Below, in pieces: positions 20,601 through 59,521 of a stretch of DNA of 64,000 nucleotides. The translations under genes and the position numbers were made by a program. Position 1 is the stretch's first letter; the number at the start of each line of letters is the position of its first letter. This stretch comes from Amoebophrya sp. A120 (Eukaryota > Protista > Dinoflagellata). Location of the stretch: the NCBI GenBank assembly GCA_905178155.1, contig CAJINV010000008.1:3555292-3619291 (forward strand), read 5' to 3'. The notes beneath the pieces are model-generated. The model did no database searches and was not told the origin of the DNA. It saw nothing but the letters and a program-made list of their open reading frames with translations.

Positions 20601-23600
20601 TCTCGAGCAGCAGCCTCATCGCGACTATATAATTTCCAACGCGAACAAAGTGACTCGCGCAGAGCGCCATTCTCTTTTCTTCAATGAAAACGCCCTGTGT
20701 TTTCTATCAGTCTCACCACGCTGAACATGCAGCGCAAATACCAAATAAACAGGTTTCCCAGGCCGGGATCGGCTTGAGAATGTTCACCAAGGCGACGCAG
20801 TTTGGAAGCTACGCCGAGGCCACGGAAGTCCAGGCGGTTGCCAAAGGTCTGCTGAAGCAGAAGAAGGAAGGCTTGTTGGAGGAAGAGGATGCGACGCAGG
20901 GCGCCGACTTTGCCGATGTTGTCAGGGCCGTCGTGGACACGTTGAACAGACCCAGCGCGCACGACGTCATCTCCCACCTGCTTGCGGAGGGCGAATCAAG
21001 GAGCAAGACTTATTATGGCCACTACAAAGGCTGCACGGGCCCGAAGTTGCGCGACGTCCTTGGGCAGGCCGTCAACTGCTTGGTCGCCATCAATGTTCTC
21101 GCCGTCCAGCACCTGAAATTTACGGACAGTCGCCAGCGGCGCGTGGAATATGATGCCCTTTTTGTCCCCCTCCGGGAAGCAGCAGCGTCTTCGTCGAAGC
21201 CAGCCGGCAGGGGACAAGGCAAAGCGCCAGCTGCGCAACCGCCGCCGCCAGCTGCGCAACCGCCGCCGCCAGCAGCTTCCTCGAGCCGCAACAGCCCGAA
21301 CATCTCCACGGACACCGGTGCCAAGAGTAAAAATGCCGGCGCGGTGATATCCTATGGAAAAGCGCACCCATTACAGAGCGTGTGCCTACACCCGTGCTGT
21401 CATGGTCTAGGGAAGAAGTAGGCGCATCTTTGTCATGTGTGTGGGCTCCTGAGTCGAGACATTGTTCTCCTTGCAGTGGGTGATCTTCTTCAGAGCGGGA
21501 ATCTGTTTGCATGAAGATTTCATTTGCAATGGCATCCCTAGCCCCCAAAAAGAGATCGCAATCTGTAGAGTGGGCGCTTTCTCTTAGAGGATACCGAAGC
21601 AGCAGCTCCTCCGTTGTCCCCGCCCAGGCGAAAAAGGCTCCGGTCGTAAGTGGTTCCAGGGGTGCTGTGTTTCCAACGAGTTCAATAGGTCCGTTCCCGG
21701 CGGCCGGCTCCAGTGCCGGTGCGTGTAGTACTATCGTAGTGCTTTTAGATTGCTTTCCAGTAGCTGTCTGCTGTAGCATCAAAGAGTTTTTCCATCGTCC
21801 ACACTCTAGCGGCACAATTTTCCTGGCTCGCGCGAATTTATTGCGTGTGATAGTTTGCTATGCCGTTTGCAATACAAATCCATGTGTCTGGTGTCGGAAA
21901 TTAGCAAGCCTTTTCATGCTGGTCTGTATTGCGAGGCCCCGAAGAAGTCCTCCTGCTTGTCATGACAAAACGCCGCTTCTCATGCGGAGCACACATGCAG
22001 CACAGAGTGGGGCTCGCTCGCATCATACAGCACAACTTTCCAGACCCAGCAGACGCATTTGCACGCAATTTGCACTGAGCATACATCTCAACACAATAAA
22101 CAGGACAAGGCAGTAAAAGCGAGGCTGGCAAGGTCAAGTCCATTCCTAGTTCTTTCGCCAGCGGCAACATCAAGGACAGCAAGACCGCCGCTGCAAACTT
22201 CGCGGCCCCATCGGTTTCAGCGCGCCCCGGCAAAGAGGTCAACAGGACAGGCGCTGCAAGCTCCACAGCCCCATCGGTGTCAGCGCGCCCCAGCAAAGAG
22301 GGGAACAAGACCGCGGCGGCAACCCTCGGAGCTCCATCGGTGACGGCGTCGGCGCCCGACGGCGAGTAGGCGTCGGGGAGGCTTTTGATTTTGAAGTTGA
22401 CGGGAGATGTAGACAGAGCGTGCTCGTTGCGAGTCTTTACTGTGTCCTTTTTCACATTCTACCTACTTACTAACTTGGGCCATCTACGTTCATCTCGATT
22501 CATCTGCTTGTGCTCTTTATTCGTGCCTACCGCTTTCATACTCATTTACTGACTCATACTTGAGTAAGCCACTCACTCGTTATCAATCTGCTCCTCTACC
22601 ACCACAGCTTCTTTTTGTAGACGGAGTCACACTCTTCAGAGCACTTTTTTGAAGACGAATGAAAGCAGACGCAAAGGCAAAACGCCCCGCGCGACTTAGA
22701 TACAGCGACGCTATATTATTTCGTCTATGTGCCCCGTGCTTGAGTTTGAATTTTGTTGCGCTCGGGATTCTATCTCTATCCGGTTGAGGAACGAGTGCGG
22801 CGGTGTAGCTGATTCCTGTGGGGTTCTTGTTGAGGGATGGCCGACGTGCTGCACGATTGCAGTTTGCAAGGAGTACCTGCGCACCGTGAGCGGTTTGCAA
22901 GTTAAGGCGGCGCGCTTGAGAGGTGTTATAGTCGCAGTTGAGTGCCCTCTCTCTTTGGAAGGCGCCCGAGGAGGACGAAAACTTGAGAGGGGGAGACTTC
23001 TCCAGAGGGTTGCCTCCCGACGTTCCGGCTGCGTCGAGTAGTTCAGGCGACTGCTCTGTGTCGCAACTTGGAGTCGAGCGGCCGTGCCCGCACGTGAGCA
23101 GAGCTTGCGAAAAAATGAGGCGGCAGGCTATGCCATTCTGTGCAAAAACGTCCCCGCCTCGTAGTCAAGGTGGCAAATCTGCAATACAAATCCAGGCTCT
23201 GCTGGGAGATACGCATGACAAATTTGCATCTGCAGTGTCGTGTGGGTTAGCAAGGAGGGGGAGAGCCGCATCACCGCGGCGCCTACGCATCCTATTCATG
23301 GCATTTATTACAAACCCCCGAACCAACACGACTGCAAGGTCTTTTCGTGCGAAGGTTCTTCTGCAGTTTTTTCTGTTGATGCAAATCAGCATATGGGGCG
23401 GGGACGTTGTTATCCAGGATATGTGTGCTGGTTCGCTCGGGACTCAAGCAAAGCAGCAGGCCGGTTTTCTGACAGTTTGCCGAGAGAGACGGGTGAGAAT
23501 CTCGCGTGGGGGTCTGGCCGCGCATGATTGGGTACGTACGCATGAGACGAGCCGACGACGCCGTGGTGGAGGCCCAGCAACAGCAACCTGGCGCAAGAAT

Positions 23601-26600
23601 GGGGCGCAACGGTGGTGCGAGGCGCAAAGACGTTGCTGTGTAGATTCTGCGCCAATCATTCTATTGCGATTCGGAACCATCTTCCAAAAAATACAAATCT
23701 CAGGTAGTCCCCCGCGGAGTCGATAGATTGTCGCTGCGAAGCCTGACGCGCTTACGGAAGCAGACTGCCGGTGGCGGAGTGGCACTGGGTCGCAGGGTCA
23801 TAGAAGATGGCATCCAGGTTCGACCAGTTCGTGGATAACTAACAGCACGACAGAACTTTCGCTCTGCCCACGGAAAGATCAGCAGCGGCGACACGACCGA
23901 GCACGACAACAAACTACGACCAGGCCAGATCACGGATTCGATGCTGCAACGAAACTAGCCTGATTCCACTAGTCTGATTCCATCCGTAAACCTGATTCCG
24001 ATACGCGGATTCGATACCTTAGCCTGATTCCGTTAGTCTGATTCCATAGATAAGTCTGATCCCGTAAATGCTTTAGTCTGATACCATCGACGACCGTTTC
24101 TGAACGCGCAGGACAAAGAGCTCCCGAACAAGCAGGTGGAGGCCATTTTTAGCAGCCGGAACGAGGCTCTCATGCTGTTTGCTCTACGGAACTGGAATGG
24201 GTTGCCCCGGACCCGTATCAAATGCAAAAGTGTCTGGGTCTGGGAGGTTGGAGCTTGTGACGCTAACTTTGGACTCTAAAAAAATCTGTATTGCATGATC
24301 AGCAAGAGGAGTCTAGTTTGTGCTACGCGGGGAGGGCATTTGTCATGCGGAATAGGCATCCGGAAGCCATTGAAAAATCAGTGATGCTAGGTCATGCATT
24401 ACAGACATCCTGGGTCATGCAAAATATGCATGACACTTCCGGCAACATTCCAGACCCAGACATTTTTGCATTTGATAACCCGCTACGACCTCCTGCAACT
24501 CGCGGACATGCAGAGCGATCCGCTCCTTGCCGCCTTGCGCGATCTATCAAATGCAAAAATGTCTGGGTCTGGAAAGTTGGAACTTGTGATGCTAACTTTG
24601 GACTCTAAAAAAATCTGCATGACCAGCAAGAGGAGCCACATTTGTGCTACGCGAGGAGGGCATTTGTCATGCGGAAACGGCATCAGGAAGCTTTCCAAAA
24701 ATCTGCGATGCTGGGTCATGCATTACAAGCATCATGGGTCATGCCAGACAAGCATGACAAGCCTTCCATTCTTCAAGACCCACACATTTTTACATTTGAT
24801 ACGATCCGCTCCACGAAGATATTAAACCCTCCGCTTTTCACGGAATCGTCGGAGAGGACTCCATACTCAAGAAGAACAGCTGGTTATTGACGACTCCGGC
24901 CGACGTGCAAGCCGTCGCGCCTCGGAGCTGCCCGCCGGCGGTGGGCGAGCACCTGGGAAAACCGGCGCTGGTCCGCCTGGGTAGTGCCGTCGATCAGGCC
25001 CGGCTCCTGCGGTACGTGCAGAAGTTCGCCAACGCAGGAGTAGACCTCCACCTCTCGAAGAAGGTGAAACCGTTCGAACCGCTGATCGTGGAAGATTTTC
25101 TGGAGCTGCTTACCAGCGTCACGTTGTATGCATTGCAAATATGTCTGGGTCTGGAAACTTGTAATGCTAAGTGACGTAGCATGAGGAGCCCACAATAAAT
25201 GATTGCCTAGCATGACAAGCTTCTGAGCTTCTAAGTGTTGCCTATTCGGCATGACAAACTCCGACTTCGCATCACAGAAAAAAAGGGTTTTTGGGTACCG
25301 TGCATGACAGACTTGAAAGTCCTGCTAGCCTAGCATGACAAACCTTGCTTTTTTCCAGACCCAGACATTTTTGCATTTGATATCACGGACGGAAACGGGA
25401 AAACCAATCTGGTGAAACACGAACCATTCCTGCTCAACCTGCTCGACCACTACCGGGTCAAACTGCCCGTGCACGTCTCCACAAAGGTGTTGGAGCAGTT
25501 CTACGAGACCGAGAAAGCCTATGGAACTGTCAGGATCGAAATCAAGAGAGTCGAAATAAGTAATTTGTGATGCATAAAAGCGAGGATACCAGTTGGACCC
25601 TCAGACTCAGTTTGTTTCCAGGTGGCGCGTGACGAATTTCGGGAGCACCAAGATCCAGTCTGTCGCGCTGTTTGCGCAAAGAAGACGGCTCCTGTCATGA
25701 AAACTCTGGCAGTCCATCGTCTTCCCCTAAACAGGCTTGCGATTGGTCTCATTTGCCTGCTCCCCAACACTGGCCTTACGTGCCCTACATTTTATGCATA
25801 CACAACTAACTAAACTTTTGGATTTTGTCGATTTTGATCCTGGCACTCCCATAAGGTTGACGCAGAGGCGGCTGCGCTCACCCTGCCTGCGGACGGTCCA
25901 GCACTTGACCAGGAGGCGGCCGGGGCTCGGAACCGGGTTATGGCGTTCTCAACTGTTACATTCTCAACTGTTACACGGATGCGTGATGCAAGAATGGCAA
26001 AAGTGAAAGGGGTCACCTTGCGGGTCTTGCATGACAGATCTGGCAAAGATTCCGAGCCTGTTTGGCTCTTCGAGAATTTGTCATGCGAAGCAGCTTGATC
26101 GTGTCGATTCTGATTGTGATTTTGCATTTACAAATCATGTAACAGTTGAGAATGTTAATGTAACAGTTGAGAACGCCATACGGGTGCTGGCCAGGTTTCT
26201 GTCTCTGCCGCGGCGCGATTTGACGACCCACAGTATCCTGAGTAAAAACGTACCCACACCATAGTCAAGATGGGGAATCGGCTAGACAAATCCACAAGTT
26301 TTGGCTGTTTTGCATGACAAATTTGGATTCGTAGTGTAGTGCTGTTTGAGCTAGCTAAGCAGCATCACAGATCTAGCATACCATGGTGATTGGAGCATGA
26401 CAAATTACAAAACACGACTAGAAAATGCTTCTCATGGGGCTCCGCATGAGAAACATTTTCAGCATGCAGATTTGCATTACAACTCTGGTGTGGGTACGTT
26501 TTTACTGAGGATACACACCGTGAAAAAGTTGTTGGAGGAAGCGGAACTGGAAATTGTCGAAGGTTGCATCGTATCAACTGTAAAAATGTCTGGGTCTGGA

Positions 26601-28591
26601 AGAATGCACGTTTGTCATGCTAAGTCTGAAGCATGCAAAAATCTGTGTTGCATGATTACCAAAAGTCGTCCAGTTTTGACCAAGTCGGGAGGGAGTTTCT
26701 CATGCAGGATAAGCATGAGAGAGATCGCGCAGAATCTGTAATGCTAGGCTCTGCATTCCAGACCTCATGGGTCATGGAAAAGCTGCATGACAAATCGCGC
26801 ACTCTTCCAGACCCAGACATTTTTACAGTTGATACATCGCTATCAACTCGAATGGTACGACAACTGCTACAGAGTACGACACTGCAGCTACTTCCGCTGC
26901 TGCTGCAGCGCAGGCGGGAGAAGTGGAACAAGTGGTAAAGGGGACCACGGACAAGAACAACTCCACGGCAACTTTTAGTACAACAACTCGCCGCAAGACG
27001 AGCAGCTGCAGCAGCCCCCGCACCGTGGCCAGTCTGTCGATCGCAAAAAACCCGTTCAAGCTCCGCATTCTGCGGGGTCTGTATACGCAGCCCGGCGCTT
27101 GGAACATCGAGCGCGACGTGACGATGAGGATCTGGAAACATGCCGGCATCGACGTGGACACGCCGCAGAGCCAGCTGGCGCTGGCAGCACTGAAACTGTT
27201 CGATGCCACCACCCAGATGCACCCCGACCACATCGACGCCATCCTCTCGACCAAGAACACCGACCTGATGTACCACCTGCTGGACACGTGGGACTTCCCC
27301 ATTTCGCACGACCAGTTCGACGAGCTGCTGAACTTCGATTGGTGCTTCGGCCTTCAGCCGTGCACAAAGCTGACATCATCTGCGTGCACAAAGTTGACAT
27401 CATCTGCGATGTCGGCTTCGTCCTCTGCCGTTGCAGTTTTCAGCCTGGATGCTGTCCCGGTGGGAGTTCTTCCCTCCCCGGTCGTGGGGAGTTGTACATC
27501 AGCACGGGCCGCCGGGGTAGCAGCTGCACTCGTCACAGGCGAAGAGCAGGGGCGGGGCAACAACGACGGCAGTACCAATAGTATGCCCACCGCGACGACG
27601 AGGAGCACCGGTGCGGCTGAAGAAGCGTGTTGCGGAACTACAACTTCGCCCCCCACTTACTACTACACCAACCGGGCAGGTGGCATCAAGGTGATTGCCA
27701 AACTGCTCACCAAGTGGCAACCCAACCTGACGGCGGAGCAGGCCGCGGGCCTGCGTCGCAGGTACGCGGATTCTCCGGTGTCCGACTTATCAAATGTAAA
27801 AGTGTCTGGGTCTGGAAGATTCTAGACTTGTAATGCTGTCTCTGGATTCCAGAAAAATTTGTATTGCATGACCAGCAAAAGGCCTCCAGTTTGTGCTACG
27901 TGGAGAGGGCATTTCTCATGCGGTAGAGGCATCACAAAGTCTTCTAAAAATCTGTGATGCTAGGGCATGCATCACAGACATCATGGGTAATTCAAAAGAT
28001 GCATGACAAACCTGGCAATCTTCCAGATGACCCAGACATTTTTGCATTTGATACGACTGGGTGACCAGCAAGTACGGTGGTGGTGGACTTTCCGCCAATG
28101 AGGTGATGTTACTGGAAGAAACTACCCAGGGCGGCCCAGAAGTAGACGGGCTGCAAAATGCATCCCGGCAACACCAGCAGCCGCAAGTAGAACCTCAGCC
28201 GCTCGGTGAAACGGAAAGTAAAAATCAGGGTGACGGAGGACAAGTCGACAATGAAGCTGCTGCTGCCGATATTGCGAGAAAAAAATCCCTCATCCCCTAT
28301 TCAGCACAGGATTTTTGAAGCGGGATTATAATTTGTGCTGTACTCATGATCTTCAAGAGGTACTACTGTCGGCACACGCAAAGCATCTGCGTAAAATTAT
28401 TGCCTTGTTATTTGCTGCAAATGCAATACATTAAATTTGCATCACTGAGTCATTCTCATTGCGATATGGGGAGGGGGATCATTTTCATTTCGATAGTTAA
28501 CGTCTGGACGGTTTCTTCATCTGGTGACGAGACCGGATCGCGGGAGGACTGGGACATGATTCCTGCTGACGGTAGTTCGTTGGATCCGTAA
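8679..28591 (+). CDS. Hypothetical protein (~1,060 aa, N-terminal hydrophobic segment) interrupted by the 14.3-kb transposon and 9 introners; exons 8679-9814, 24105-24215, 24483-24544, 24807-25126, 25388-25519, 25859-25938, 26186-26233, 26519-26571, 26840-27787, 28059-28269, 28501-28591
   Basis: Removing each insert plus one TSD gives one stop-free frame (3192 nt), e.g. LLKRFL-NAQDKELPNKQVEAIF; no family recognised. Confidence 0.7.
9815..9960 (+). repeat. Left TIR: tandem array of GAATCAGACTA-like units
   Basis: About 8-9 degenerate (G/A)GAATCA(G/A)ACTA units. Confidence 0.9.
11241..22369 (+). CDS. MULE/Mutator-type DDE transposase (~1,901 aa); exons 11241-11357, 11556-11784, 13869-13910, 14125-14919, 15198-17005, 17280-17313, 17563-18273, 19309-19852, 20117-20561, 20753-21347, 21599-21718, 22104-22369
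   Basis: Exons sum to 5706 nt with no stop. AT-hook KRGRPKK; C-x2-C..C..H finger (FCRNC..ECKYKL..KH); D1 HADTT; FLAWVVEEQTATY..; D2 AAWDG..ISQAL; DxxH (RDLPH); E in QTTERAW; SWIM CSC-x8-CKH. The 5' exons are less certain. Confidence 0.75.
11358..11550. mobile_element. Introner inside transposase gene (own family)
   Basis: TATGGGACTCTC..GGCTACACACTCAGC / GCTGAGTGTGTAGCC..GAGAACCCCATA; TSD eroded; element+5 nt removal is in frame. Confidence 0.75.
12453..12810. repeat. Cluster of GC-rich palindromic units (GAGGCGAAGTTCCGGCTTCCGCTGCGG core)
   Basis: 12453-12579 folds back with ~40-bp arms; partial copies at ~12612-12706 and ~12737-12810. Confidence 0.75.
13555..13647. repeat. Second palindromic unit of the 12453 family
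   Basis: TTGCTTGTCTTCCCCGCAGCGGAGGCCGCAACTTCGGCTCT ... AGAGGCGAAGTCCCGGCTTCCGCTGCGCGGAAG. Confidence 0.75.
13911..14119. mobile_element. Introner, degenerate family A
   Basis: TATGCGTGGCAGATGTGTCTATGTCTGG / CAGACCCAGACGCATTTGCATCGGATA; TSD CGCTC/CGCCG. Confidence 0.7.
14920..15192. mobile_element. Introner, family A, splitting the DDE domain
   Basis: TIR, exact TSD GATAC; joins ORF 14064 to ORF 15284 in frame. Confidence 0.9.
17006..17274. mobile_element. Introner, family A
   Basis: TIR, exact TSD CCGCC. Confidence 0.88.
17314..17557. mobile_element. Introner, degenerate family A
   Basis: 30-bp imperfect TIR, TSD lost (GGCCG/CTCGA), element+5 nt removal is in frame. Confidence 0.7.
18274..19303. 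mobile_element. Expanded introner, family C (1,030 bp)
   Basis: Left end TATCC..AAAAAGCCCTCCTCCCCATATCG, right end CGGGAAGGGGGGCGCTTCCTCACAATA, exact TSD GCAAC; joins ORF 17511 to the SWIM-side exon in frame. Confidence 0.75.
19853..20111. mobile_element. Introner, family A (stop-free, read through in the ORF track)
   Basis: TIR, TSD GTCTC/GCCTC. Confidence 0.85.
21348..21593. mobile_element. Introner, degenerate
   Basis: TATCCTATGGAAAAGCGCACCCATTACAGA / TCTGTAGAGTGGGCGCTTTCTCTTAGAGGATA; TSD lost; in-frame join. Confidence 0.7.
21859..22083. mobile_element. Degenerate family A element nested within GT-AG intron 21719-22103
   Basis: TATG..TGTGTCTGGTGTCGGAAA / TTTCCAGACCCAGCAGAC..GCATA. Confidence 0.6.
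23134..23421. mobile_element. Degenerate introner-like MITE in the 3' non-coding part of the transposon
   Basis: AAAAACGTCCCCGCCTCG / ATGGGGCGGGGACGTTGTTATCCAGGATA. Confidence 0.6.
23932..24095 (-). repeat. Right TIR: tandem array of TAG(T/C)CTGATTCC-like units
   Basis: Inverted counterpart of the 9815-9960 array. Confidence 0.9.
24216..24477. mobile_element. Introner, family A
   Basis: TIR, exact TSD ACCCG. Confidence 0.92.
24545..24801. mobile_element. Introner, family A
   Basis: TIR, exact TSD CGATC. Confidence 0.92.
25127..25382. mobile_element. Introner, family A
   Basis: TIR; TSD TCACG with the left copy offset by an extra TTG. Confidence 0.85.
25520..25853. mobile_element. Introner, family G (TIR TATGG...GTCAGGATCGAAATC..GTCGAAATAA)
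   Basis: TIR, TSD eroded (AAGCC/AGGTT), in-frame join. Confidence 0.8.
25939..26180. mobile_element. Introner, family F (TIR TATGGCGTTCTCAACTGTTACATT, internally duplicated)
   Basis: Near-perfect TIR, exact TSD CGGGT. Confidence 0.92.
26234..26513. mobile_element. Introner, family B
   Basis: TIR, TSD CACAG/CACAC. Confidence 0.9.
26572..26834. mobile_element. Introner, family A
   Basis: Perfect 31-bp TIR TATCAACTGTAAAAATGTCTGGGTCTGGAAG, exact TSD CATCG. Confidence 0.93.
27788..28053. mobile_element. Introner, family A
   Basis: TIR, exact TSD CGACT. Confidence 0.92.
28270..28495. mobile_element. Introner, degenerate family C
   Basis: AAAAATCCCTCATCCCCTAT / ATATGGGGAGGGGGATCATTTT..GATA; TSD eroded; in-frame join. 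Confidence 0.75.
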
Positions 28592-29913
28592 GGCGAACTC
28601 TCGTACGTCGGACCCTTTCTGAAGATGTGCCGTTCGCACTGTGGTGTGTACACAAGAATGAGATCGCGCTGCTTGTTGCACTCACTTGTTTTGCCCGCAA
28701 ACGTTTTGTAAGTTCTTCTACGAAGTAGGTATCAAGTTGTATGTACGTACCAATCTACAACTGCCGGATGAACAAGAATATAGACGAGCAGAAGTTTTGG
28801 AATATTGTACTTAGTTTTGGAAATTTCTGTCTTGAGAATACTACAACAAACCACGGGGCGGGATCTGCTTCTATTTTTCCCTCTCAATACAGCACTGCAC
28901 CAGCTAGACACAAAGAAAGATTTAAACTTCTTGCTGTCACTCACAGTATCGTCGATTTCGATCGTCTGCACGCAAGGGCAGGTTGTAGGTAATGTGTATT
29001 TTTGAAGATATTTTTGTTGGGCCGACGAGGTGGAAGGGGTACCTGCTGCTAGCGTTGAGGGGCGCTTTTGTCCATGCGAACCGCGATGAAAAATATAGAA
29101 ACCCAAGAGCAAGCTTTGCTACATAATTGTGTTGCGCAGATGGAAATCAGAATTGGTCTAGGACCGACTAACCAATCTGACAGGACTTCTTCACAGTCTC
29201 AGTTGTAGGATCTAACTTCTGGCCTCGGGTTTTCCCCTACAACTTCTAGGAGTGGAAAAAGAAATATGGTCTTTGTTCTACGAAACCGGTCGTACCTGGT
29301 GGGCCTTTATCTGTAAGCTTTTGGTTTTTTGTTGCCCTGGCGCGCGTTGGCCACAAGATCTGTAAATCCAAAATTCGTGGTGGCGCAATAGTACTCACTG
29401 CAGAAAGGTGATCTCGCCCCGAGAATGCAGAAGTGTGCACACGTTTGTAATGCAAACACGAGGAAATTCAGAAATCGAAATTCGAAAATGCAATGCTCTA
29501 CTGCTCCAGCAGAATTTGAAGCAAGGAAAAAAGAAAAAATCGATTGGTAGAATCTTGGATCAAATAAGTAGAAGGAAAAGCTCAGCAACAAGGTGAACAC
29601 GGCAACTTAATACTACATCATCAAATTCATTTTCAATTTTTTGAACAAAAATTATCATCATTTTCACGAGCAGGACTGCACAACATGAAGAGTTAGCGAG
29701 CCAAGACTCGAGAAAAATTACCGTTGATTTCATCCGGCAGCGAGCGTCGTGTCTCCTTTTTTGTCTGACCCTAACACACCAGTTGGACGAGAAGACTGAC
29801 TACACTTGACTGTTACACTAAGCAAAGAAATACCGTCTTTCACCGCCACAAAAAAAACTAGAAGCAAGAGACCTAACAGCATCAATTGAGCCTCGTCCGC
29901 AAAAGAGAAAAAA

Positions 29914-30820
29914 ATGGTGGCAAGCAGCGGTAACGCGCGTGGCGGGGGTCCGGTTTCGCAGCCGTCACCGGAGGTTACCGCGTTGGCGACCGAGTTCCGG
30001 GAGCTGCAGAAACAGCTGCAGACGAACTACGATTCGCGGATGAAGCTGCTGACTCAGCAGGAGGAGAACCAGACGGTGGCGAAGGAATTCGCGATCCTGG
30101 AGCAGGTATCCTGTGCAAAAGTATCGTACTCGTACTAATTGCAGATATGCATAAAAAATCCAACTTTCTACCTGAAATAGCACGACAAATTCATTGCATT
30201 TTTGTTCTTGGGAAAGTTTGTAATGCAATTCATACTAGGTAGTACGATTACTTTTGCAGTGCATAGTATGACGGTGTGGTCTACAAGTTGATCGGCCCCG
30301 TGCTGGTCCGCCAGAACCTGGAGGACGCGATATCAGAATGAAAAATCCCCCCTCTCCATATCAAAACGAAGTTTCTGATGCTGGATTTGCGTACACAAAT
30401 CTGATTTGTCTTGCTGGCGAGGACTGCGGACCCATGTTAAGCCTGAGGAGACAGGTTTTGGCCTTGGCGCTTCGCATGACAGACGTCTATGCTGTAGGTG
30501 CAACAGCATGACAAACCGCTTGTAGAATGCGGCGGAGCCTGTGGAATTGCCTTCATGTAACACAGAGACGATTTGTGGTCACAAATTAGCAACACAAATT
30601 TTCGAAAACGTGCCTTGTCAATATGGGGAGGGGGGATTTTTCCTTTTGATACGCGAAGGGGAACGTGGACAAGCGACTGAACTACATCAAGGAAGAGCTC
30701 GACCGAGCGGACAAGGTCATCGTGGAGCTGGAGAAGGACCTGGAGGGGAAAAAGGTCAAGCTTACGGACCTCATGTCCGCAGGAGGTGCCGCCGCACCCG
30801 CGACCCAGCCTGCCAAGTGA
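29914..30820 (+). CDS. PFDN6: Prefoldin subunit 6 (beta-type), 138 aa; exons 29914-30106, 30271-30330, 30657-30820
   Basis: EENQTVAKEFAILEQDGVVYKLIGPVLVRQNLEDAKGNVDKRLNYIKEE matches the PFDN6/Yke2 signature. Confidence 0.92.
30107..30265. mobile_element. Introner, family D (TIR TAT...TGCAAAAGTATCGTAC)
   Basis: TIR, TSD GCAGG/GTATG. Confidence 0.85.
30331..30651. mobile_element. Introner, family C (TIR TATC....GAAAAATCCCCCT..CCATAT)
   Basis: TIR, exact TSD CGCGA. Confidence 0.92.
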
Positions 30821-31901
30821 GAAACCCAAATCAAAATCAGCCTGCCAAAGTGGATGTATAAAATGGTTCTTCCATAATCTACTTATACCGCCTGGTACGC
30901 CGGTCATGTGGAGGGAGAATGAGCAAGAGCCAAGCGAAGCGAGCTCGTTTGATGATCAGGTTTTTTTCACAAAGACGACAAGATTTATTGCGACTACACA
31001 TGTACTACGACTACGTAACGCAGGCCTGACGGCAGGTGGCACAGAGACGCTTTATCACTCCACGTGCCTCAAGAGGAGCAGAAAGTAGAACCTGTTGTGA
31101 TGTCTGCCATGAACACATTCATAAAAACGGCAGAAGTGGTAGCAGCACACTCCAGTTGCAAATCTGGCGGAGGTCTAGTACCCAGCGTGCGCATGCCACG
31201 AATGTTCGAAATGTGTTAGGTTGGACGTGGGACGCCTCACACTGCGATCCCCTCGTATGAATGCAGCAAGGTTGGTAGAGGTGCAGCCACGGTGACTGAG
31301 TACCAAGCTGATTGGTTTCCAAGTAACATAAAAATGCTGCCGTTTGTATGCTTCGACCATAGCATTCTGGTCGGTCTCTGTGCGACGTTTGAGTGCTCAT
31401 TTTTTTTTCAATTTCTGCATATTACGAGCAAAAGATGAACAGTCGTAATCACGGCTATAAGAAGCACGCTAAGTTGTTAGTAATCGTACTCATGAAGAAC
31501 ATATTTTCTGCAAAAATTTTTCTACCGCGATCTTTGGGATGAGAAAATACTGGGTAGTGCGCAGCTTCGGTTTTTCGCCTAACAATAGATTGGGTTTGGT
31601 CGTTAGGTATTGAAATAGTACATCCAGAAAAAAATCTTGATGACACTCTCGTTTATTAAATTCTGTCATTGTCATCTCCCTCTCCTCGTCCTACTTTGAC
31701 TGCAGTGCCCGAATAAAGCTTCCTTTCTCTTGCTGCGCCTCAGCATTTTTTTCCTGCTAGTGCTAGATAAAACAACTAATTAGTTGGCTTTCTTCTCGGT
31801 GGCCGGTATTTACCCCGTGCTTGATTTCCTATTTCTTTCTTATCTTCCGATGTAGTTTTGGTTCGTCGCGATCAACCAAACAACGCAAAAACACATACAA
31901 A

Positions 31902-52470: not shown

Positions 52471-55400
52471 ATGACGACATCCTACCCACAGCACTCCCCT
52501 AAAAGTAGGAGTAGTTCTACTTGTACATCACTCCCAGAAGAAGTTGTACAAAAAACCGCCTTCTACGTGGAAACCGAGCGCTGCAGCCCCGAGGAGATGG
52601 CGCTTCTGAAGCCTCACTTTCTCGCCGATCTGAGGCTTTCCCAGGCCCCAATCCACCAAACGCTTGAGCAGCTCCTGACCGACGACAGGAACCGGCTCAA
52701 ATTCCTATGCCACCGGATCCTCCCGCCCAAACCCTTCACTTTCCTGAAACGGCAGAAATTCGTCGTGATGATTCGCGGGAACAACGACTTTGAGCTCAAA
52801 AAGCTGGGGGAGAGGTATGGCTTTCCCAGGGGATTCCCGCTGGTGTGGACGCCAGGAGGATCCACGCCGCGGGCTTTCAAAGCCGAACAAGATGAACAAG
52901 ATCATTCTTTGGATGAAGTGAAAACGCCTCAATCTTCCAGAAAGTCCTCGCCATCTTCGAAAAAGCAGAAGAAAAAGGACAAGCAGCTTGTCATGAAAAA
53001 TGATAAGCTCCAAAAATCCACGTCTGTCGCGTCGCAAGTACTGCTAGAAGCACCTGGTGCTGACGACAAGGCGAGCGGCATTCCTTCGTCCGTGGGCGAA
53101 GTCGTCTCGTATGGTTTCTATCCGAAATTCGATAATGACACGGCGCTGCCGAAGATCAAACTGGAAGACTACGCGAACGCAGAGAAGTTATCTTTCTTCC
53201 GCAAATGGAGTGGCTTCTTATCCATGGTGGTGGCGTTTGACTTGGAGGTAGTACAAGTGTCCAGCGACAGTACGACTCATCAAAGAGCAGACAAAGGTCG
53301 TTTGCTCACATCAACGTCTTCACCCCCACTGCTGTCGTCAGAAAAAATCTTCTGCTGGACGGCGACGTCGAAAAACAGCTGCGACCGAGGCTCGGAATTT
53401 GTCCAGGACGCCGCCCGATTGTGGCGGCCGCACCTCGCAGGCAACTTTTCCCTGGTAAAGCAGATGGCCACCAGGTTCAAGTGTCTCTGTGCCGAGAGCA
53501 TGAGCTTCAAGGACCAGACCCACGGAGCGAGGGTGTTGAAGGAAAGCGTGATTGTGACCGCGCTGGGGACGGGCACAGCATCATTTGCCACGGCTGGTCA
53601 GGTCCTCGAGCAGCTGCCCGAAGATGTGCGATGCATCGGTTCCACCAGCAGTTCTCCTTCGTCTTCCAAATTCGTCCACTATGCGGACCTCCAAGAGTTG
53701 TCCACCTTTTGCCTCAACTACCACCTTCCCCACGACCCCCCAATCATCATCGAGGGGAAGCGGTTAGTCCAAGAGTTCCTGCAAAAGCTCACGGCGGGGA
53801 GGGACTACATGACGGAGAACAACTTGATCAAGATTCTGAGCGGCTTGCGTCTCGAAACCCGGTCCTTCCACCAGGAAGTGCTCGGCGACGTATTGGAGGG
53901 CCTGGTGCTGCACTGCTTCACGAAAGTGGAGGGGGGAATAAATGACACTGCTTCGGCCGATGTTCCTGCGGTCGGGGGAGGTGCGGAGATAGTACCTACA
54001 ACAGAAGCCCCTTCTAAGAATATAATTATGAAGAAACAGATTATCAAGTACAAGTTTCCGAACTACACCTGTCGCACCTTCGGCTTGCGCACCCTCCTCG
54101 GAGACAAGGTCGCGCTGAACTCGCCGAAAGCGCTGCAGGCCTACAAGGATTACGTCCAGCACTGGTGCTACTCCCGGAAGGGCCGGGAGTTTTGGCTGCA
54201 ATTTCTCTGCGAGTGCGGGCTGCGGAGCAAAGAGGTGATGCGGAAGCTGGAGACCATGGAAGGCCGCTCCGAGGATGAACCACTGCTGGAATTAGCCTCG
54301 AGTGGTGCAGAGGAGGCAGTGTCTGTGGACGCCACAGCACGGTGGATGATGAAAAAAGTGAAGGAAGGACAAGAAAAAATAAATCAAGTAAGCGGGGAAA
54401 AAGAACCAGAACACGAGAGGATGAAAAGTGAAATTGGGTTCCACATTCGTCTGGCGGACTACACGAGGGACTTGCTCTTGAAAACCGGGAAAATGGCGTA
54501 CAAGGAAGATGGAATGCTAGCTGCTTGTTCTACGGACCTCACAAATAACCCCGACTCCCCGTCGGCGTTGCGTAATTTCGGCCTTGGTGGGGGAGTAGAA
54601 CAAATCGATGCAGTAGACGCGTTTTCCAAGCAAGCGAGGTACACCACAACTGTGATCTGCGTTTTCGCGCCCATTGGCTACGGGAAAAGCTCCTTTGCAG
54701 AATTTTTGGTGAAGGAGATGAACGTATCAAACAAAAGGAAACCCCCCCCTCCCCATATAAAAACGAAGTTTCTGATGCTGGATTTGCGTACTTACACAAA
54801 AAATCAGATTTGTTTTGCTGGACAAGACTGCAGGCCTATGCTAAGCCTGAGTAGGGAGGTTTTGGGCTAGGCGCTGAGCATGTCTTCAAACGTCTAGTCT
54901 GTAGGGCCAACAGCATCACAAACCGCCGGCAGAATGCGGCGGAGCCTCTGGATTTGCGTTCTTGCAAGACAGAAGCTATGATTTGTGGTCACAAATCAGC
55001 ATTGCAAATTTTCTGCAACGTACCTTTTCGATATGGGGAGGCGGGATTTTTCCTTTCGATAGAACGACCGCCGGAGGTCCGAGGTTGATGCGGGCCGCGG
55101 GCTGCACCTACAACACCCCGAACTGGTCCACATCGACGGCGACGCGCTGTTTTATCCGGATCATGCCGTTGTAAATTCTGTTTCTGGTAAGCCCCCGACG
55201 TCCAACAGTGCAGCGTCTTCTTCGGGAAAAAATGCAGCTTCATCTGCAACGACCGGATCTACAACTTCTAGGAGTACTTCTTCACTCACCTCCGCCAACG
55301 TGAAGCAAACCTGGGAAAATATCCGGAGTAAAAACGTCCCCACACCAGAGTCAGGATGGGGATTTTGCAACACAAACCTAGGAGTTTTGGGAGTCACGCA

Positions 55401-58400
55401 TGACAAGTTGCACTCCGCAGTGTAGTGCAGGTTTGCAAGTGCAGCCGCATCACAGATTCATCTGCTCATCCTGTTCACAGCATCACAAATTCCAATACAC
55501 GATTGGAAATGGCTCTCATGGGGATGCGCATTACAAGTCTTCCTGTCTTTGCAAATCTGCACTACAACTCTGGTGTGGGGACGTTTTTACATAGGATAGA
55601 AAAGCGCACCATGTCGCTGGGACAGGAACGGTATGGATTGCAAATATGTCTGGGTCTGGAAGAGTCGGGACTTGTCATGACCCGTGAGGTCTGTGATACT
55701 GGTGCTAGCATCACAGATTTTTTGAGAGCTTCTTGATGCTAATTACGCATGAAAACAGCGGAACTGTGGAGGGGTACAAGGCTGCACACTGAGTGGTGGG
55801 GTTAAACTGGACTAGAACCGTAAAACTCTCATTCATCATCATCATCATCTAATTACGCATGAAAAATTCCCTCTCCGCGTGCAAAGAACTGACTCCTCTT
55901 GCTGCTCATGCAACACAGATATTTTTAGAATCCGCAGACAGCATTACAAGTTGCATTCTTCCAGACCCAGACATTTTTACATTTGATAAACGGCAGCCGT
56001 ACACGATGTGGTCGGTGCTACTAGCCCTGCACTGCGGAAAAATTCCGGTGATCTCCGCCGGCGGGGGCGTGCTGTTTTCGCAGAAGGGGCAGTTTGCGTT
56101 GCGAGAAAAAATCGAGCAGTGCTTCTCTTGCTTAGAAAACGACGTTGAAGTTATAAATGACGAAATGCAGGAGCAGGAGAATTATCCAGAACATCAAGCA
56201 GCACAAAGAACATCTTCGAAGAAGAACTTCTACAACCAGATGAAAAAGAGCAAGCGAAGACCACAAATTCTGCGCCCGCAGGTGAAGATCATCGGCGTGC
56301 TGCCGGAAGACGTCAAGGTGGAGGGCCGGAAAAATAAAAGTGCCGAGTCAGCCTACGAAAACACGAAGCTGGTCGAACAAACCGTCAAGTACCGAGTCGC
56401 GGAGGACATTTGGCCCCTCCCCCCGAACTTCAACACGGTGGACCAGTTTGCAAAGATGATCAGTGGGAAGTCGCGGAAGAATGAGCAATTTGCCGAAAAA
56501 CTGGAAAACGTCGCCGATGTGGTTTTCCGCTTTCCAAGAGTCGGGCCGGGGATGCGGTTGACTTGTGCTCATAGTTCCTCTTGTCCTGCTGCAGATGTAG
56601 TTCTTGCAGCGGTGGACGGGCGATTTGAAGCGAATGAAAAAGAAAATAAACCGAGTGGTCGTCGTGTTTTCAGCAAAGAAGAAGATTTAGTTGTTGTTGG
56701 CCCTTCTGGCAGCCACCAAATAATAAATGATATCAACAAGTCCGAACAGTCGTGGGAAGAGCGATTTGGCGTTGCTCCGGCGTGGGGCGCGCCACCTGCA
56801 AAGCCGGATGTCGTGCCGCAGGTTGGTTTGATGGTGGAGAAGGAGAACGGAAGTAATGATCGTGCAAATAAAGCGATGAACCTCGGCACGACCAACGCCT
56901 CCGCCCAAGCTCATGCAGAAGGAACATCAAAGGCTGAAGATCGTAGCGCTGTCAACTCGTTGAACATCCGAAACCTGTTCGAGCAAATACATTCCGCTAT
57001 CGAAGTGGATTCAGCCAACCTGAAGAAATTTTTCGGCAAGATGCGTCTGACGCAAACGAGACAGCTAATTCAGCTCCCCGCGGGCGGAGATAAGAACACC
57101 CTGACCGGGCACATGACGCTGCGGTTCGGTCCAGTGGAGGTTGCGTTTTCCGCTGCACCATCGCACGATGGTGACCTGACGAGAAAGAACGTCGAGTACA
57201 ACCAGCAAATAAATGAGCTGAACATGATCCCCGCGGCGGCTCCAAGCAGCGGTGGCACGAGAAGTACAACCTCCAAATACGCGGAGACAATCGACTTCGT
57301 GCGCTCGCTATATTTTTCCACAGGTCAAGTGCAAGATGATGCGAAGAAAGAAGAAAAACTAAAACACGAGCGATCAGTGGCCACTACGGCTTCATCTTCA
57401 TCTTGCAACAATCTTCTCGGCATCCGCATCACAGCCAAGCCATTGGTGAAGAGCGCCAGCGGCTCGGGAAAGAAGAAGGACCAAGGTGGAAGCAACGTGG
57501 TGTCTTGTGTCGCGATTCCTTCGAGCCCGTCTCAGTGGAAAGCGTGTTGGGGCGAGATTACTTCGGAAAAAAAGAAGTTCCTGAACCTGTTTGACGAAGC
57601 TGCAGTAGAGCTGCAAGAAGGGCGGCGGAGTGTACAACTAGTCGTGCAGCAAGAACGTGCAGCTCGATCTTCGCCCGTAGTACAAGAAGAACCATCTCCA
57701 CCGGTGGAGAATTATCCGAGGCCGCGCACACGCACTAGCTCCACGACCGCGGACGAGAAATTGCGGTCGTTTCTCGGCACAATTTCGACCGTGGTGTCCT
57801 CCCGACTCTGCAGCTGCAGCCCCGTACTTTCCCGGGGGACGTGCAATGCTGCTCCTGCTGCTGCGCAGTTGTCCGGTACAACTTCTTTCGGAGCTCCGAG
57901 GGGTGCTGCTGCGACTTCCACCTCCAGAAGTGCCATTTCGACCACAATTGTTCCTGTTGTTCCACCTCCACCACCGCAAATAAACGAGGAACTACCGTCC
58001 ATCCACTCCACTCCGCAAAACAAGGCCGCGCCGAGTCGTGGTGGAGCTGGTCCTGCAAGTGCAATCAACAACACGAAAATAATAAATTCGCCCGATTCTA
58101 TTCAACCAGGAACTACAGGCAATCTCGAGAAAGCCGCCAGTGTCTGCACGGAATGGGACTTCAGCCCGCCGAAAGCGGTGGACCCGGCGAGGAAAGTGTT
58201 TGCGTCCCAAACAGCACGAGAAGCAGCCTCTGCTTCAGTGACGGGGCACGGAGCAGATCATCTTGTGCAGGGAACTCCCGACGTGAAGATGAATACGACT
58301 GGTGCTGGTAACGGCACCGAAGTAGAAGAGCAACAGAAGATGTTGCTGGAAAAGCTTTTTGACGTGGATCATTTGAATTACCGACGCGACGACGCAGTAT

Positions 58401-58822
58401 TCTCGTCCGGAGTGGACCCGTCTCCCAAGCAGAAGCAGAATGATGTTCATGCCCAACAAGGTGATGATGTTTTGGCGCTTACCACCGCTTTTGACACGGA
58501 AAGCGATGCCGAGGAACAGGATAGGTCACCGCGCCAAAAGCAAAACACTGCCAAAATAATCCACAACAACTACGCCGCTGCTGACAAAGACAAGGACCGC
58601 GACCAGCAAGAGGCTCCGCTGGCTCTGCACGTCACAATAAACAGTGGTCGGCACATGGCCAAGGAAATGCGTACGCTGACCGGCGCTTTTCTCGCGGGGA
58701 AGAAAACGGTCTGGCTCCCGCTGGGCAATGGACAGGGCGAAATTGAGTACGACTTGCGACCGGGCTTTCTCGAGAAGCAGCTCGTGGATTTGCAAGTGCT
58801 GGGGGTGTTTGGACTTCCGTAG
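52471..58822 (+). CDS. Trl1-type trifunctional RNA ligase / polynucleotide kinase / 2',3'-cyclic phosphodiesterase (~1,787 aa); exons 52471-54724, 55067-55319, 55604-55631, 55994-58822
   Basis: Ligase motifs in order: GFYPKFDN, RKWSGFL (I), SKNS (Ia), CAES (III), EGLVL (IV), KYKF (V); P-loop APIGYGKSS plus HIDGD; two HxT motifs (GHMTL, LHVTI); three introners removed in frame (5364 nt). Confidence 0.8.
54725..55061. mobile_element. Introner, family C
   Basis: TIR, exact TSD GAACG. Confidence 0.92.
55320..55598. mobile_element. Introner, family B
   Basis: TIR, exact TSD GAAAA. Confidence 0.92.
55632..55988. mobile_element. Introner, family A, inverted, with a secondary 93-bp insertion
   Basis: TIR, exact TSD AACGG; internal 17-bp duplication flanks 55756-55848. 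Confidence 0.9.
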
Positions 58823-59521
58823 GAGAGCTAGACGACCAAGAATTTCATTATAGAATCAAAGTGATGACTTTTGTTGAGTAGTGCGAGTAAGTACCTCTAC
58901 CTGCCACGATCCCGTTCTTTGATTTCATTTTTATTTGCTCGACTGTGGACAAAATGAATGGCGACAAACTTCTGCAGGGCATAATGCATTGACGCGATAA
59001 AAATCTTTTGCTTTCCCTTTATTCCCACCACCACGACGACTTGCAAGCCGCATTGCGTTGAATTTTGGTACGGGAATAGATTACTCTTTCATGATTTTGG
59101 GGATTCCGCCGCTGTTCCAATTTGGTGCACAAGTCCACCTTTCACTTTTAAACACAGCTGAGCAGTTGTCGGTTGTCCTCCGTCGCCGTCGGCGCTGTAT
59201 TGGCAAAGACTGGAGTTCGGCTTCCAATGCTGACTCTTGCCTGATGGGACCGCCAAGTACTTATAGTACTTATTCGTTGCACGGTATGCGTACGTAAGAA
59301 TTGAATTGCAGTATTCTTATTGAACATCATCCGTCGCTCTCGCTGCCGTAGTTTCTTATCCTCGGTCGTCGAGAAAGCTGCAATGAGATCACGACTTTCA
59401 ACATCTGCTGCACCTCGTGCTTTGTTTTGCTTTTCCAACCTATTCTTGAGTGACCCGCCGGTCATCTGTTCGAGGAATTGAGGTCACGGCTTCATCTGTG
59501 TCACATTATTCGTAGACGATC

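What the first reader, a model, noticed from the sequence alone, without database searches (positions are those of the whole stretch)
52471..58822. Trl1-like heal-and-seal RNA ligase in a genome full of hairpin, non-GT-AG introns: candidate non-spliceosomal exon-joining enzyme
Seen: ligase motifs I, Ia, III, IV and V (with unusual KWSG in motif I), a P-loop kinase and a 2H phosphoesterase in one ~1,787-aa protein. The order is ligase-kinase-CPDase, with large low-complexity inserts. Established: fungal and plant Trl1 rejoin 2',3'-cyclic-phosphate/5'-OH ends in tRNA splicing and in IRE1-type unconventional mRNA splicing. Inference (speculative): stem-closed introners lacking splice consensus could be cut by an endonuclease and sealed by such a ligase. 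The gene carries three introners in its own kinase region. Proximity in this window is not evidence of a functional link.
Basis: partly seen in the sequence, partly recalled or inferred. Interest (0 to 1): 0.78.

Follow-up and report, generated by a model that had tools for sequence, protein, structure and literature searches.

The report
Trl1-like RNA repair ligase in Amoebophrya
This gene of the marine parasite Amoebophrya encodes a 1,787-residue protein predicted to clean and re-join cut RNA in the way the yeast tRNA ligase does; it belongs to a family shared with giant viruses and other protists and likely repairs tRNA or rRNA rather than splicing the parasite's unusual hairpin introns.

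Summary
Four exons (52471-58822) give a 1,787-aa protein. An assembled, likely-RNA contig lacks all three inverted-repeat inserts exactly (element plus 5 nt), and no register reads GT-AG. The predicted ligase domain matches fungal Trl1, C-terminal domain included (Foldseek E 4e-7; Z 14.8). The kinase matches P-loop RNA kinases, and both 2H HxT motifs are intact. The C-terminal 1,198 residues are an annotated Amoebophrya A120 protein whose model lacks the ligase core.

The introner-splicing idea gets little support. The protein belongs to a family of at least 275 clusters, common in giant viruses, which this scan has already reported in other genomes. KWSG is the family's commonest motif I. Close relatives include a gene with one GT-AG intron, an intronless gene, and a cluster labelled Prorocentrum. 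A second paralogue occurs in strain AT5, whose introns are canonical. So the gene likely predates the strain-specific introner invasion. No partner endonuclease was identified, and three introns is below the genome average.

It is most likely a heal-and-seal repair enzyme for tRNA or rRNA. An exon-joining role is not excluded (about 6%), because the window's own paralogue was not found in AT5.

The parts
52471..54719 (+). Exon 1 (leftmost placement of the joint; it can slide up to 5 nt right): ligase domain and start of the kinase
   Evidence: ORF; joint 54719->55062 in run X2
52588..54486 (+). Trl1/Rnl1-like ligase domain, about residues 40-672: N-subdomain, nucleotidyltransferase core, helical C-terminal domain, with low-complexity inserts
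   Evidence: AlphaFold2 model, mean pLDDT 74; Foldseek ranks 1-7 all fungal Trl1 ligase, E 3.8e-7 to 7.5e-6; Z 14.8, rmsd 4.2, 341 aligned to 6n0t residues 37-406
53203..53214 (+). Motif I KWSG; K245 is the predicted adenylylated lysine
   Evidence: K245, S247, G248 in 169 of 169 aligned ligase domains; Trl1 has KxNG here (PMC6379707, passages)
54046..54090 (+). Motif V (K526, K528) followed by R535 and R540, candidate counterparts of the Trl1 2'-phosphate arginines
   Evidence: R540 in 164 of 169, R535 in 141 of 169; spacing is RxxxxR, not the RxxR of fungal Trl1
54643..57013 (+). P-loop polynucleotide-kinase-like domain, about residues 725-1185, split over four exons; Walker A APIGYGKS at 54667-54690, IDGD from 55132
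   Evidence: VIA-align: 9drz fungal RNA kinase Z 11.1 (rmsd 3.5, 156 aligned), 6tzo Z 10.3, 9r3w Z 9.9, among other NMP-type kinases such as 2rhm Z 11.7; motif blocks
54720..55061 (+). Intron 1: introner 54725-55061 plus one copy of a 5-nt direct repeat (342 nt removed)
   Evidence: Inverted arms; joint in X2 with 5 ambiguous letters; no GT-AG register
55062..55314 (+). Exon 2
   Evidence: X2 record 12
55315..55598 (+). Intron 2: introner 55320-55598 plus one 5-nt direct repeat (284 nt removed)
   Evidence: 55-nt arms, 75% complementary; joint in X1 and X2
55599..55626 (+). Exon 3 (28 nt)
   Evidence: Between two joints in X2; restores the conserved L-G-x-E-R kinase segment
55627..55988 (+). 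Intron 3: introner 55632-55988 plus one 5-nt direct repeat (362 nt removed)
   Evidence: Arms; joint in X2
55989..58822 (+). Exon 4 to the stop codon; likely-RNA contigs run on to 59029-59051
57035..58819 (+). Predicted 2H cyclic phosphodiesterase, about residues 1193-1787; HMT at 57110, HVT at 58628, split by inserts of about 85 and 340 residues
   Evidence: Motifs aligned with compact homologues; the matching part of homologue P0019 resembles PF08302 tRNA_lig_CPD and 2H-SAK clusters by language-model features, 0.93-0.95; not confirmed by fold search

Best explanation
The gene encodes a 1,787-residue three-domain protein predicted to be a Trl1-like heal-and-seal RNA ligase, which likely repairs cut tRNA or rRNA, and the three introners in it are likely ordinary passengers. 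Predicted mechanism, by analogy with fungal Trl1: the 2H domain opens a 2',3'-cyclic phosphate to 3'-OH/2'-phosphate. The P-loop kinase phosphorylates the 5'-OH end. The ligase adenylylates K245, passes AMP to the 5'-phosphate and seals a 3'-5' bond, leaving a 2'-phosphate for a Tpt1 enzyme. Shown here: gene structure, precise intron removal in likely-RNA contigs, conserved motifs, predicted folds of ligase and kinase, family membership and tree position. Inferred: every catalytic step, the 2'-phosphate preference, the activity of the split 2H domain, and the substrates. The gene was likely inherited from before the A25/A120/AT5 split as one of two paralogues; the introners themselves are more likely removed by a relaxed spliceosome.
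For: Fold: top 7 Foldseek hits are fungal Trl1 ligase. The alignment to 6n0t covers chain residues 37-406 including the C-terminal domain, whereas T4 Rnl1 aligns only to residue 277 (Z 14.8 vs 14.5, tied). Trl1 activity residues (PMC6379707, passages) have counterparts by motif and spacing: D86/D106, R99/R120, K120-F121/K219-F220, K148/K245, K169/K301, E218/E342, H227/H351 (same 9-residue spacing from motif III), E300/E476, K323-K325/K526-K528, R337/R540 (same 14-residue spacing from motif V). Each is kept in 164-169 of 169 domains. Homologues P0037 and P0183 are fused to Tpt1 (E 2e-16, 2e-15), P0041 hits PF09511 (E 3e-6), P0181 hits PF08303 (E 1e-9), P0027 and P0038 hit 2H-SAK. Family breadth: 275 clusters at E<=0.001; 7 loci in IMG/VR, 5 of them giant-virus MAGs by contig name; nearest Atlas cluster 100% viral; a choanoflagellate; none among 27 candidate stretches in 185,579 prokaryote genomes. 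Tree of 54 proteins, 705 columns, FastTree: window protein + A25 P0045 (0.98), inside a clade (0.96) with L008 (one 147-nt GT-AG intron), L009 (no intron seen in 5.1 kb), the P0002 cluster (one member labelled Prorocentrum cordatum) and MMETSP P0006. A25 P0146 + AT5 P0084 form a second paralogue (1.0). Introner families are strain-specific and likely post-date the A25/A120 split; 83 of 89 spliceosomal proteins and U2, U4, U5, U6 were found in A120 (PMC7789003, sections 10, 11, 16). The gene has 3 introns where the genome mean of 1.42 per kb predicts about 7.6. One contig has both a GT-AG intron and introners removed (X1 record 2). Trl1 is reported to repair rRNA breaks generally (10.64898/2026.05.26.727988, abstract only).
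Against: No activity or substrate was tested, and nothing here points to tRNA or rRNA directly; the 7 viral loci and the window hold no tRNA genes. Motif I is KxSG, not KxNG, and the arginine pair is RxxxxR, so 2'-phosphate dependence is uncertain. The 2H fold was not confirmed by any structure search. The window's paralogue was found in both non-canonical-intron strains and not in AT5. The Prorocentrum label rests on one cluster member, which nr labels Polarella glacialis, and P. cordatum introns are also rich in inverted-repeat elements, though with GT/GC/GA donors (PMC10666404, passages). L008 and L009 show intron type only for this one gene.
Confidence: 0.75

Rival explanations
1. The protein is the exon-joining ligase of a non-spliceosomal pathway: an unknown endonuclease would cut each stem-closed introner at a fixed distance from the paired ends and this enzyme would heal and seal the exons.
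For: Exact removal without GT-AG; 0 of 26 repeat-flanked elements in the window allow GT-AG and 1 of 26 allows G[TCA]-AG. U1 snRNA was not detected in A25 or A120, and the authors call the mechanism distinct from the usual machinery (PMC7789003). The orthologue is in both A25 and A120 and was not found in AT5. A120, A25, L008 and L009 share long inserts absent from compact viral members, which could be docking surfaces. Euglenid nonconventional introns are released as circles, not lariats (PMC11282704, passages).
Against: Same-clade genes carry a GT-AG intron or none. The family is common in giant viruses. No endonuclease is identified. A near-complete spliceosome is present. The failure to find an AT5 copy is weak: searches also missed AT5's known paralogue P0084, hides relatives above 50% identity behind one representative, and the AT5 assembly is 87.7 of about 120 Mb. 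Both spliced elements with decayed direct repeats that I could examine (25127, 30107) start with GT in the -1 register, as a spliceosomal donor would; n is 2.
Confidence: 0.06
2. The protein is only partly active: the ligase works, but the 2H domain, split by a 340-residue insert, or the kinase has lost function, and healing is supplied by other proteins, as in sealing-only fungal ligases.
For: 667 of 1,198 residues of the C-terminal model have pLDDT under 50; no 2H fold hit; first Walker A position is Ala in A120 and A25 but Gly in the other 19 of 21 aligned. Sealing-only ligases exist in Mucorales (PMC10946435, search listing only).
Against: Both HxT motifs, the QxR strand and the C-terminal strand are kept in A120 and A25 and modelled with block pLDDT about 76-90; GKS and DGD are intact.
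Confidence: 0.11
3. The protein serves a dedicated programmed splicing event on a few mRNAs, of the IRE1/HAC1 type, rather than general repair.
For: Fungal Trl1 has this second role (PMC6379707 abstract and passages).
Against: No IRE1-like nuclease or target was examined; the many viral homologues fit repair better (PMC9503650 passages).
Confidence: 0.06

Closest known systems
Fungal tRNA ligase Trl1 (Rnl6 clade; Chaetomium 6n0t, 6n67, 8rbj, 9r3w; Candida 9qw7)
   Same: Ligase-kinase-2H order; predicted ligase fold including the helical C-terminal domain; counterparts of most activity residues; kinase fold shared with Trl1 KIN.
   Different: 10-15% identity in structural alignments; no Trl1 Pfam hit to the window's exons or P0046; motif I KxSG instead of KxNG; RxxxxR instead of RxxR; Trl1 Arg305 is His here; roughly twice the length of compact homologues through low-complexity inserts.
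Giant-virus ligase-kinase-2H proteins (CAH6419376.1 'RNA ligase'; Oceanusvirus WRJ69702.1 'putative tRNA ligase'; Bodo saltans virus 'tRNA ligase/uridine kinase' in PMC5871332, passages)
   Same: For the first two: same sequence family (E 1e-39 and 5e-11); P0019 has 37% identity over 582 aligned columns and the same motifs in all three domains. The Bodo saltans virus protein was not compared here; it is only a named precedent.
   Different: Viral members are compact (about 750-870 aa); this one is a nuclear, intron-containing gene of 1,787 aa. I found no biochemical study of the family in the searches run.
Phage T4 Rnl1 with Pnkp (tRNA repair)
   Same: Ligase N-subdomain and core superpose equally well (Z 14.5, 246 aligned).
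   Different: Rnl1's C-terminal domain does not align; T4 heals with a separate kinase-phosphatase (recalled), whereas a 2H domain is fused here.
Introner elements of Amoebophrya sp. A120 (Farhat et al. 2021, PMC7789003)
   Same: TAT-starting inverted repeats, short direct repeats, non-canonical borders, RNA-supported removal.
   Different: Nothing material; the three introns are ordinary members.

Membership tests
Trl1 / Rnl6 clade | Ligase-kinase-cyclic phosphodiesterase in one chain, in that order | tested here: met
   the third domain by HxT motifs and homologue features
Trl1 / Rnl6 clade | Nucleotidyltransferase motifs I, Ia, III, IV, V and Rnl1-like N-subdomain residues | tested here: met
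Trl1 / Rnl6 clade | Trl1-type helical C-terminal domain of the ligase | tested here: met
   Model aligns to 6n0t residues 37-406, 341 residues, rmsd 4.2, Z 14.8; predicted model, domain not scored on its own
Trl1 / Rnl6 clade (fungal and kinetoplastid type) | Motif I KxNG | tested here: not met
   KWSG; Ser in 169 of 169 vs KxNG
Trl1 / Rnl6 clade (fungal and kinetoplastid type) | RxxR after motif V that binds the 2'-phosphate | tested here: inconclusive
   RxxxxR (R535, R540); R540 has the spacing of R337, R535 is 2 residues off R334; residue-level superposition was not available. Plant Trl1 also lacks the pair (10.1101/2024.06.06.597711, passages)
Trl1 / Rnl6 clade | Pfam PF09511, PF08303, PF08302 above cut-off | tested here: not met
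   0 families for the exons and P0046; P0041 reaches 27.7 bits against a 28.3 cut-off for PF09511; P0181 passes PF08303
Trl1 / Rnl6 clade | 2'-phosphate-dependent sealing, GTP-dependent kinase, complementation of trl1 deletion | not testable with these tools
   Needs biochemistry
2H phosphoesterase superfamily | Two HxT/S motifs | tested here: met
   HMT 1218, HVT 1724; second His in 21 of 21 aligned, first His in 20 of 21
2H phosphoesterase superfamily | 2H fold | tested here: inconclusive
   Kinase filled both fold searches; the domain was not modelled alone; Atlas structure search of P0019 648-807 gave no 2H match
Giant-virus/protist ligase-kinase-2H family | Sequence similarity over all three domains | tested here: met
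Amoebophrya A120 introner elements | TAT-starting inverted repeats, 3-5-nt direct repeats, removal from RNA at non-canonical borders | tested here: met
Endonuclease-plus-ligase splicing (tRNA or IRE1 type) of introners | A cognate endonuclease, linear or circular non-lariat introns, 2'-phosphate junctions | not testable with these tools
   No genome held; contigs cannot show end chemistry or lariats

The most novel reading that the evidence does not exclude
Amoebophrya A25 and A120 co-opted one of two inherited Trl1-like ligases as the exon-joining enzyme of a spliceosome-independent pathway that removes tens of thousands of transposon-derived introns from mRNA, which would explain how these introners spread without splice signals and without U1.
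Probability: 0.06. Interest if true: 0.95.

Novelty: new member of a known kind. Interest (0 to 1): 0.33.

Why it matters
As most likely read, it adds a nuclear dinoflagellate-lineage branch, with two paralogues in Amoebophrya, to a large and apparently untested family of Trl1-like RNA repair enzymes best represented in giant viruses. It also corrects a gene model that lacks the ligase core. The KxSG and RxxxxR variants make it a useful test of what sets 2'-phosphate specificity. How Amoebophrya removes its non-canonical introns is still an open question, and this gene gives one concrete enzyme to rule in or out. If it did join exons, it would be a genome-wide non-spliceosomal mRNA splicing system, but current evidence does not favour that.

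Tried and rejected
No whole genome is held, so RtcB, Tpt1, TSEN, IRE1, Dbr1 and an A120 copy of the second paralogue could not be searched. The supplement of PMC7789003 (1 file searched) has 0 hits for RtcB, DBR1, TSEN and this gene id.

Sequence searches of PDB chains did not find Trl1: one search gave 2 weak unrelated hits; one search gave P-loop proteins, best E 0.004. Foldseek on the kinase-2H model had no match at E<=0.001. The third homologue search covered only 30-119-residue proteins and found 0 of 268, so fragments of 120-412 residues were covered only.

No listed run is on record as RNA. Raw-read RNA runs X8 and X9 laid only 13 and 3 reads, in introner-containing bins, and say nothing on expression. 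The DNA-like run X5 was laid on 11001-31000, not on the ligase gene; its joints swamped the joint table, so only contig pieces could be used.

A GT-AG reading of intron 1 that would keep one extra codon was considered and rejected: the contig skips 342 nt, not 339. IQ-TREE did not run because of an option conflict, so supports are FastTree values; the tree is midpoint-rooted and gives no donor or direction of transfer. In one search, 23 of 192 rows were dropped for covering fewer than 250 ligase columns; one search used 54 chosen proteins.

Literature: 'Amoebophrya' + 'RNA ligase' gave 1 paper, a review whose one ligase mention concerns tRNA introns. Other searches listed no study of this family in dinoflagellates. 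PMC5062991 (recalled as a survey of RNA repair systems) is not held and may already describe the family. bioRxiv supplements were not available. No complex prediction was run, as no binding claim is made.
Full report
Gene structure. The + strand has an ORF from ATG 52471 and a second long ORF ending at stop 58822. Three elements with inverted ends lie between them. Each starts TAT, ends ATA and is flanked by a perfect 5-nt direct repeat. One 3,380-nt contig of run X2 shows joints 54719->55062, 55314->55599 and 55626->55989, each with 5 ambiguous letters; run X1 also shows the second. So element plus one repeat copy is removed (342, 284 and 362 nt). None of the six registers of any of the three reads GT-AG. 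The joined frame is 1,787 aa, and residues 590-1787 are identical to P0046, annotated as Amoebophrya sp. A120 GSA120T00005867001. The public model therefore omits the ligase core.

Are X1, X2 and X4 RNA? The tool calls this a guess. On 11001-31000 their contigs skip introns, while X5 has even depth in single-copy bins (about 41-72 in most) and its contigs run through stretches that the others skip, for example 18269-19303. X1, X2 and X4 thus behave as RNA and X5 as DNA.

The introners. A scan for TAT...ATA elements with paired arms gave 45 raw candidates, 26 with at least 4 of 5 repeat letters matching, against 3-6 candidates and 0 such repeats in each of three shuffles. After removing overlaps, 33 elements remained, 22 with perfect repeats. 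They match the introner elements of Farhat et al. 2021 (PMC7789003; outline, passages, sections 10, 11 and 16, one supplement search). Of 26 repeat-flanked elements (25 plus intron 1, which that scan missed), none allows GT-AG and one allows G[TCA]-AG. Earlier notes of this scan propose a cut one base before and four after the element. Three elements with imperfect repeats fit that: shift 2 or more at 19853; four left-repeat letters kept at 25127; shift 4 or 5 at 30107, where the 55-nt exon is inferred from record coordinates. They do not separate -1/+4 from 0/+5. The three introns fold stably (z -4.15, -6.21, -3.12), but only intron 2 is predicted to pair to its very ends.

The protein. No Pfam family hits the exons or P0046, and sequence searches of PDB chains do not reach Trl1. 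An AlphaFold2 model of residues 1-749, built on 23 sequences, has mean pLDDT 74 and pTM 0.74. Its seven Foldseek hits at E<=0.001 are all fungal Trl1 ligase domains. VIA-align gives Z 14.8 to 6n0t over 341 residues including the C-terminal domain, and a tied Z 14.5 to T4 Rnl1 over its first 277 residues only. Trl1's activity residues (PMC6379707, passages) have counterparts kept in 164-169 of 169 family members; this mapping is by motif and spacing, not by residue-level superposition. Differences: motif I is KxSG rather than KxNG, the arginines after motif V are RxxxxR rather than RxxR, and Arg305 is variable. KWSG is the family's commonest form (95 of 184).

The model of residues 590-1787 is poor overall (pLDDT 54), but its kinase matches NMP-type P-loop kinases, among them fungal RNA kinases 9drz (Z 11.1), 6tzo (10.3) and Trl1 LIG-KIN 9r3w (9.9), with 2rhm top at 11.7. 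The fold alone therefore does not fix the kinase substrate. The 2H domain rests on two intact HxT motifs conserved in the family and on language-model similarity of the same part of homologue P0019 to tRNA_lig_CPD and 2H-SAK clusters. Its fold was not confirmed.

The family. Searches gave 43 homologues at 90% clustering and 275 clusters at 50%. They include named viral proteins ('RNA ligase' of an uncultured virus; 'putative tRNA ligase' of Oceanusvirus), the choanoflagellate Didymoeca costata, a cluster with a member labelled Prorocentrum cordatum (Polarella glacialis in nr), and Amoebophrya A25 and AT5. IMG/VR gave 7 loci from 63 pattern matches, metagenomes 7 from 129, prokaryote genomes 0 from 27. 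Two homologues are fused to Tpt1, which ties the family to 2'-phosphate chemistry. By features, compact homologue P0019 is nearest to a wholly viral cluster, then to Trl1 clusters (0.94). This scan has already described such proteins in several giant viruses. Bodo saltans virus is reported to carry a 'tRNA ligase/uridine kinase' among tRNA repair genes (PMC5871332, passages); I did not compare that protein.

Does it splice introners? In a 54-protein tree (ligase-only tree of 169 agrees) the window protein is sister to A25 P0045 (0.98; 57% identity over 576 columns). It sits in a clade (0.96) with L008, L009, the P0002 cluster, P0001 and MMETSP P0006. L008's gene has one 147-nt GT-AG intron, and L009's shows no intron over 5.1 kb. 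A25 P0146 and AT5 P0084 form a second paralogue (1.0), weakly sister to that clade (0.76). AT5 introns are 99.98% canonical, and introners are strain-specific and likely younger than the A25/A120 split. P. cordatum donors are GT, GC or GA, although its introns are also rich in inverted-repeat elements and were predicted with tools set to those donors (PMC10666404, passages). The gene thus likely predates the invasion. A120 keeps 83 of 89 spliceosomal proteins and U2, U4, U5 and U6. One contig has both a GT-AG intron and introners removed. Three introns in this gene is below the 7.6 expected from the genome mean, so carrying them means nothing special.

That absence is weak. The word-index searches also missed P0084, the full search collapses relatives above 50% identity, and the AT5 assembly is incomplete. 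Co-option of an old enzyme cannot be excluded by phylogeny alone.

Verdict. The protein likely works like Trl1 but does not meet the fungal motif I definition or the Pfam cut-offs, so I file it in the giant-virus/protist Trl1-like family rather than as a fungal-type Trl1 orthologue. Most likely role: heal-and-seal repair of cut tRNA or rRNA (0.75, inferred; general RNA break repair by Trl1 in 10.64898/2026.05.26.727988, abstract only; viral RNA repair context in PMC9503650, passages). Introner exon joining: 0.06. Searches listed no paper on this protein or on its family in dinoflagellates; subscription papers and PMC5062991 were not available. Other papers seen: PMC12130899 and PMC6777427 (passages; neither addresses this enzyme) and 10.1101/2024.06.06.597711 (passages). 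Interest 0.33.

Noticed in passing
L009:708-5807: The orthologue reads through in one frame with three in-frame TGA and two TAG codons and ends at TAA, which suggests a recoded nuclear genetic code (TGA likely Trp, TAG likely Gln); such a code has been described in a syndinian (recalled, not checked).
   Followed up: partly
window:54720-55988: All three introns fall within 281 nt of a 5,364-nt coding sequence, with one 28-nt exon between two of them; the rest of the gene has none.
   Followed up: no
window:55739-55865: A 17-nt direct repeat 110 nt apart inside intron 3; contigs of X1 and X2 show a form lacking the 110 nt, suggesting a nested insertion or a shorter family member.
   Followed up: no
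window:52471-54237: The annotated A120 protein starts at residue 590; the ligase core is present in databases only as fragments (P0044 residues 1-283, P0047 residues 361-489).
   Followed up: yes
P0146 (A25) and P0084 (AT5): A second Amoebophrya paralogue of the ligase-kinase-2H protein, 48% identical between the two strains over 414 columns; an A120 copy could not be searched for.
   Followed up: partly
P0037, P0183: Four-domain members with an N-terminal Tpt1/KptA domain fused to the ligase, which would hold a complete 2'-phosphate repair path in one chain.
   Followed up: partly
window:25127-25382 and 30107-30265: Two elements whose direct repeats have decayed both begin with GT in the -1 register, and likely-RNA pieces stop just before it; a hint that a GT donor helps once the repeat is lost.
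   Followed up: partly
window:18269-19303: A 1,035-nt introner-type intron with a 5-nt repeat is skipped in run X2, several times longer than the others.
   Followed up: no
window:12472-13641: Arrays of longer inverted and repeated segments unlike the TAT...ATA introners.
   Followed up: no
window:40478-41569: ORF with a DegT/DnrJ/EryC1/StrS aminotransferase domain, E 3e-20.
   Followed up: no
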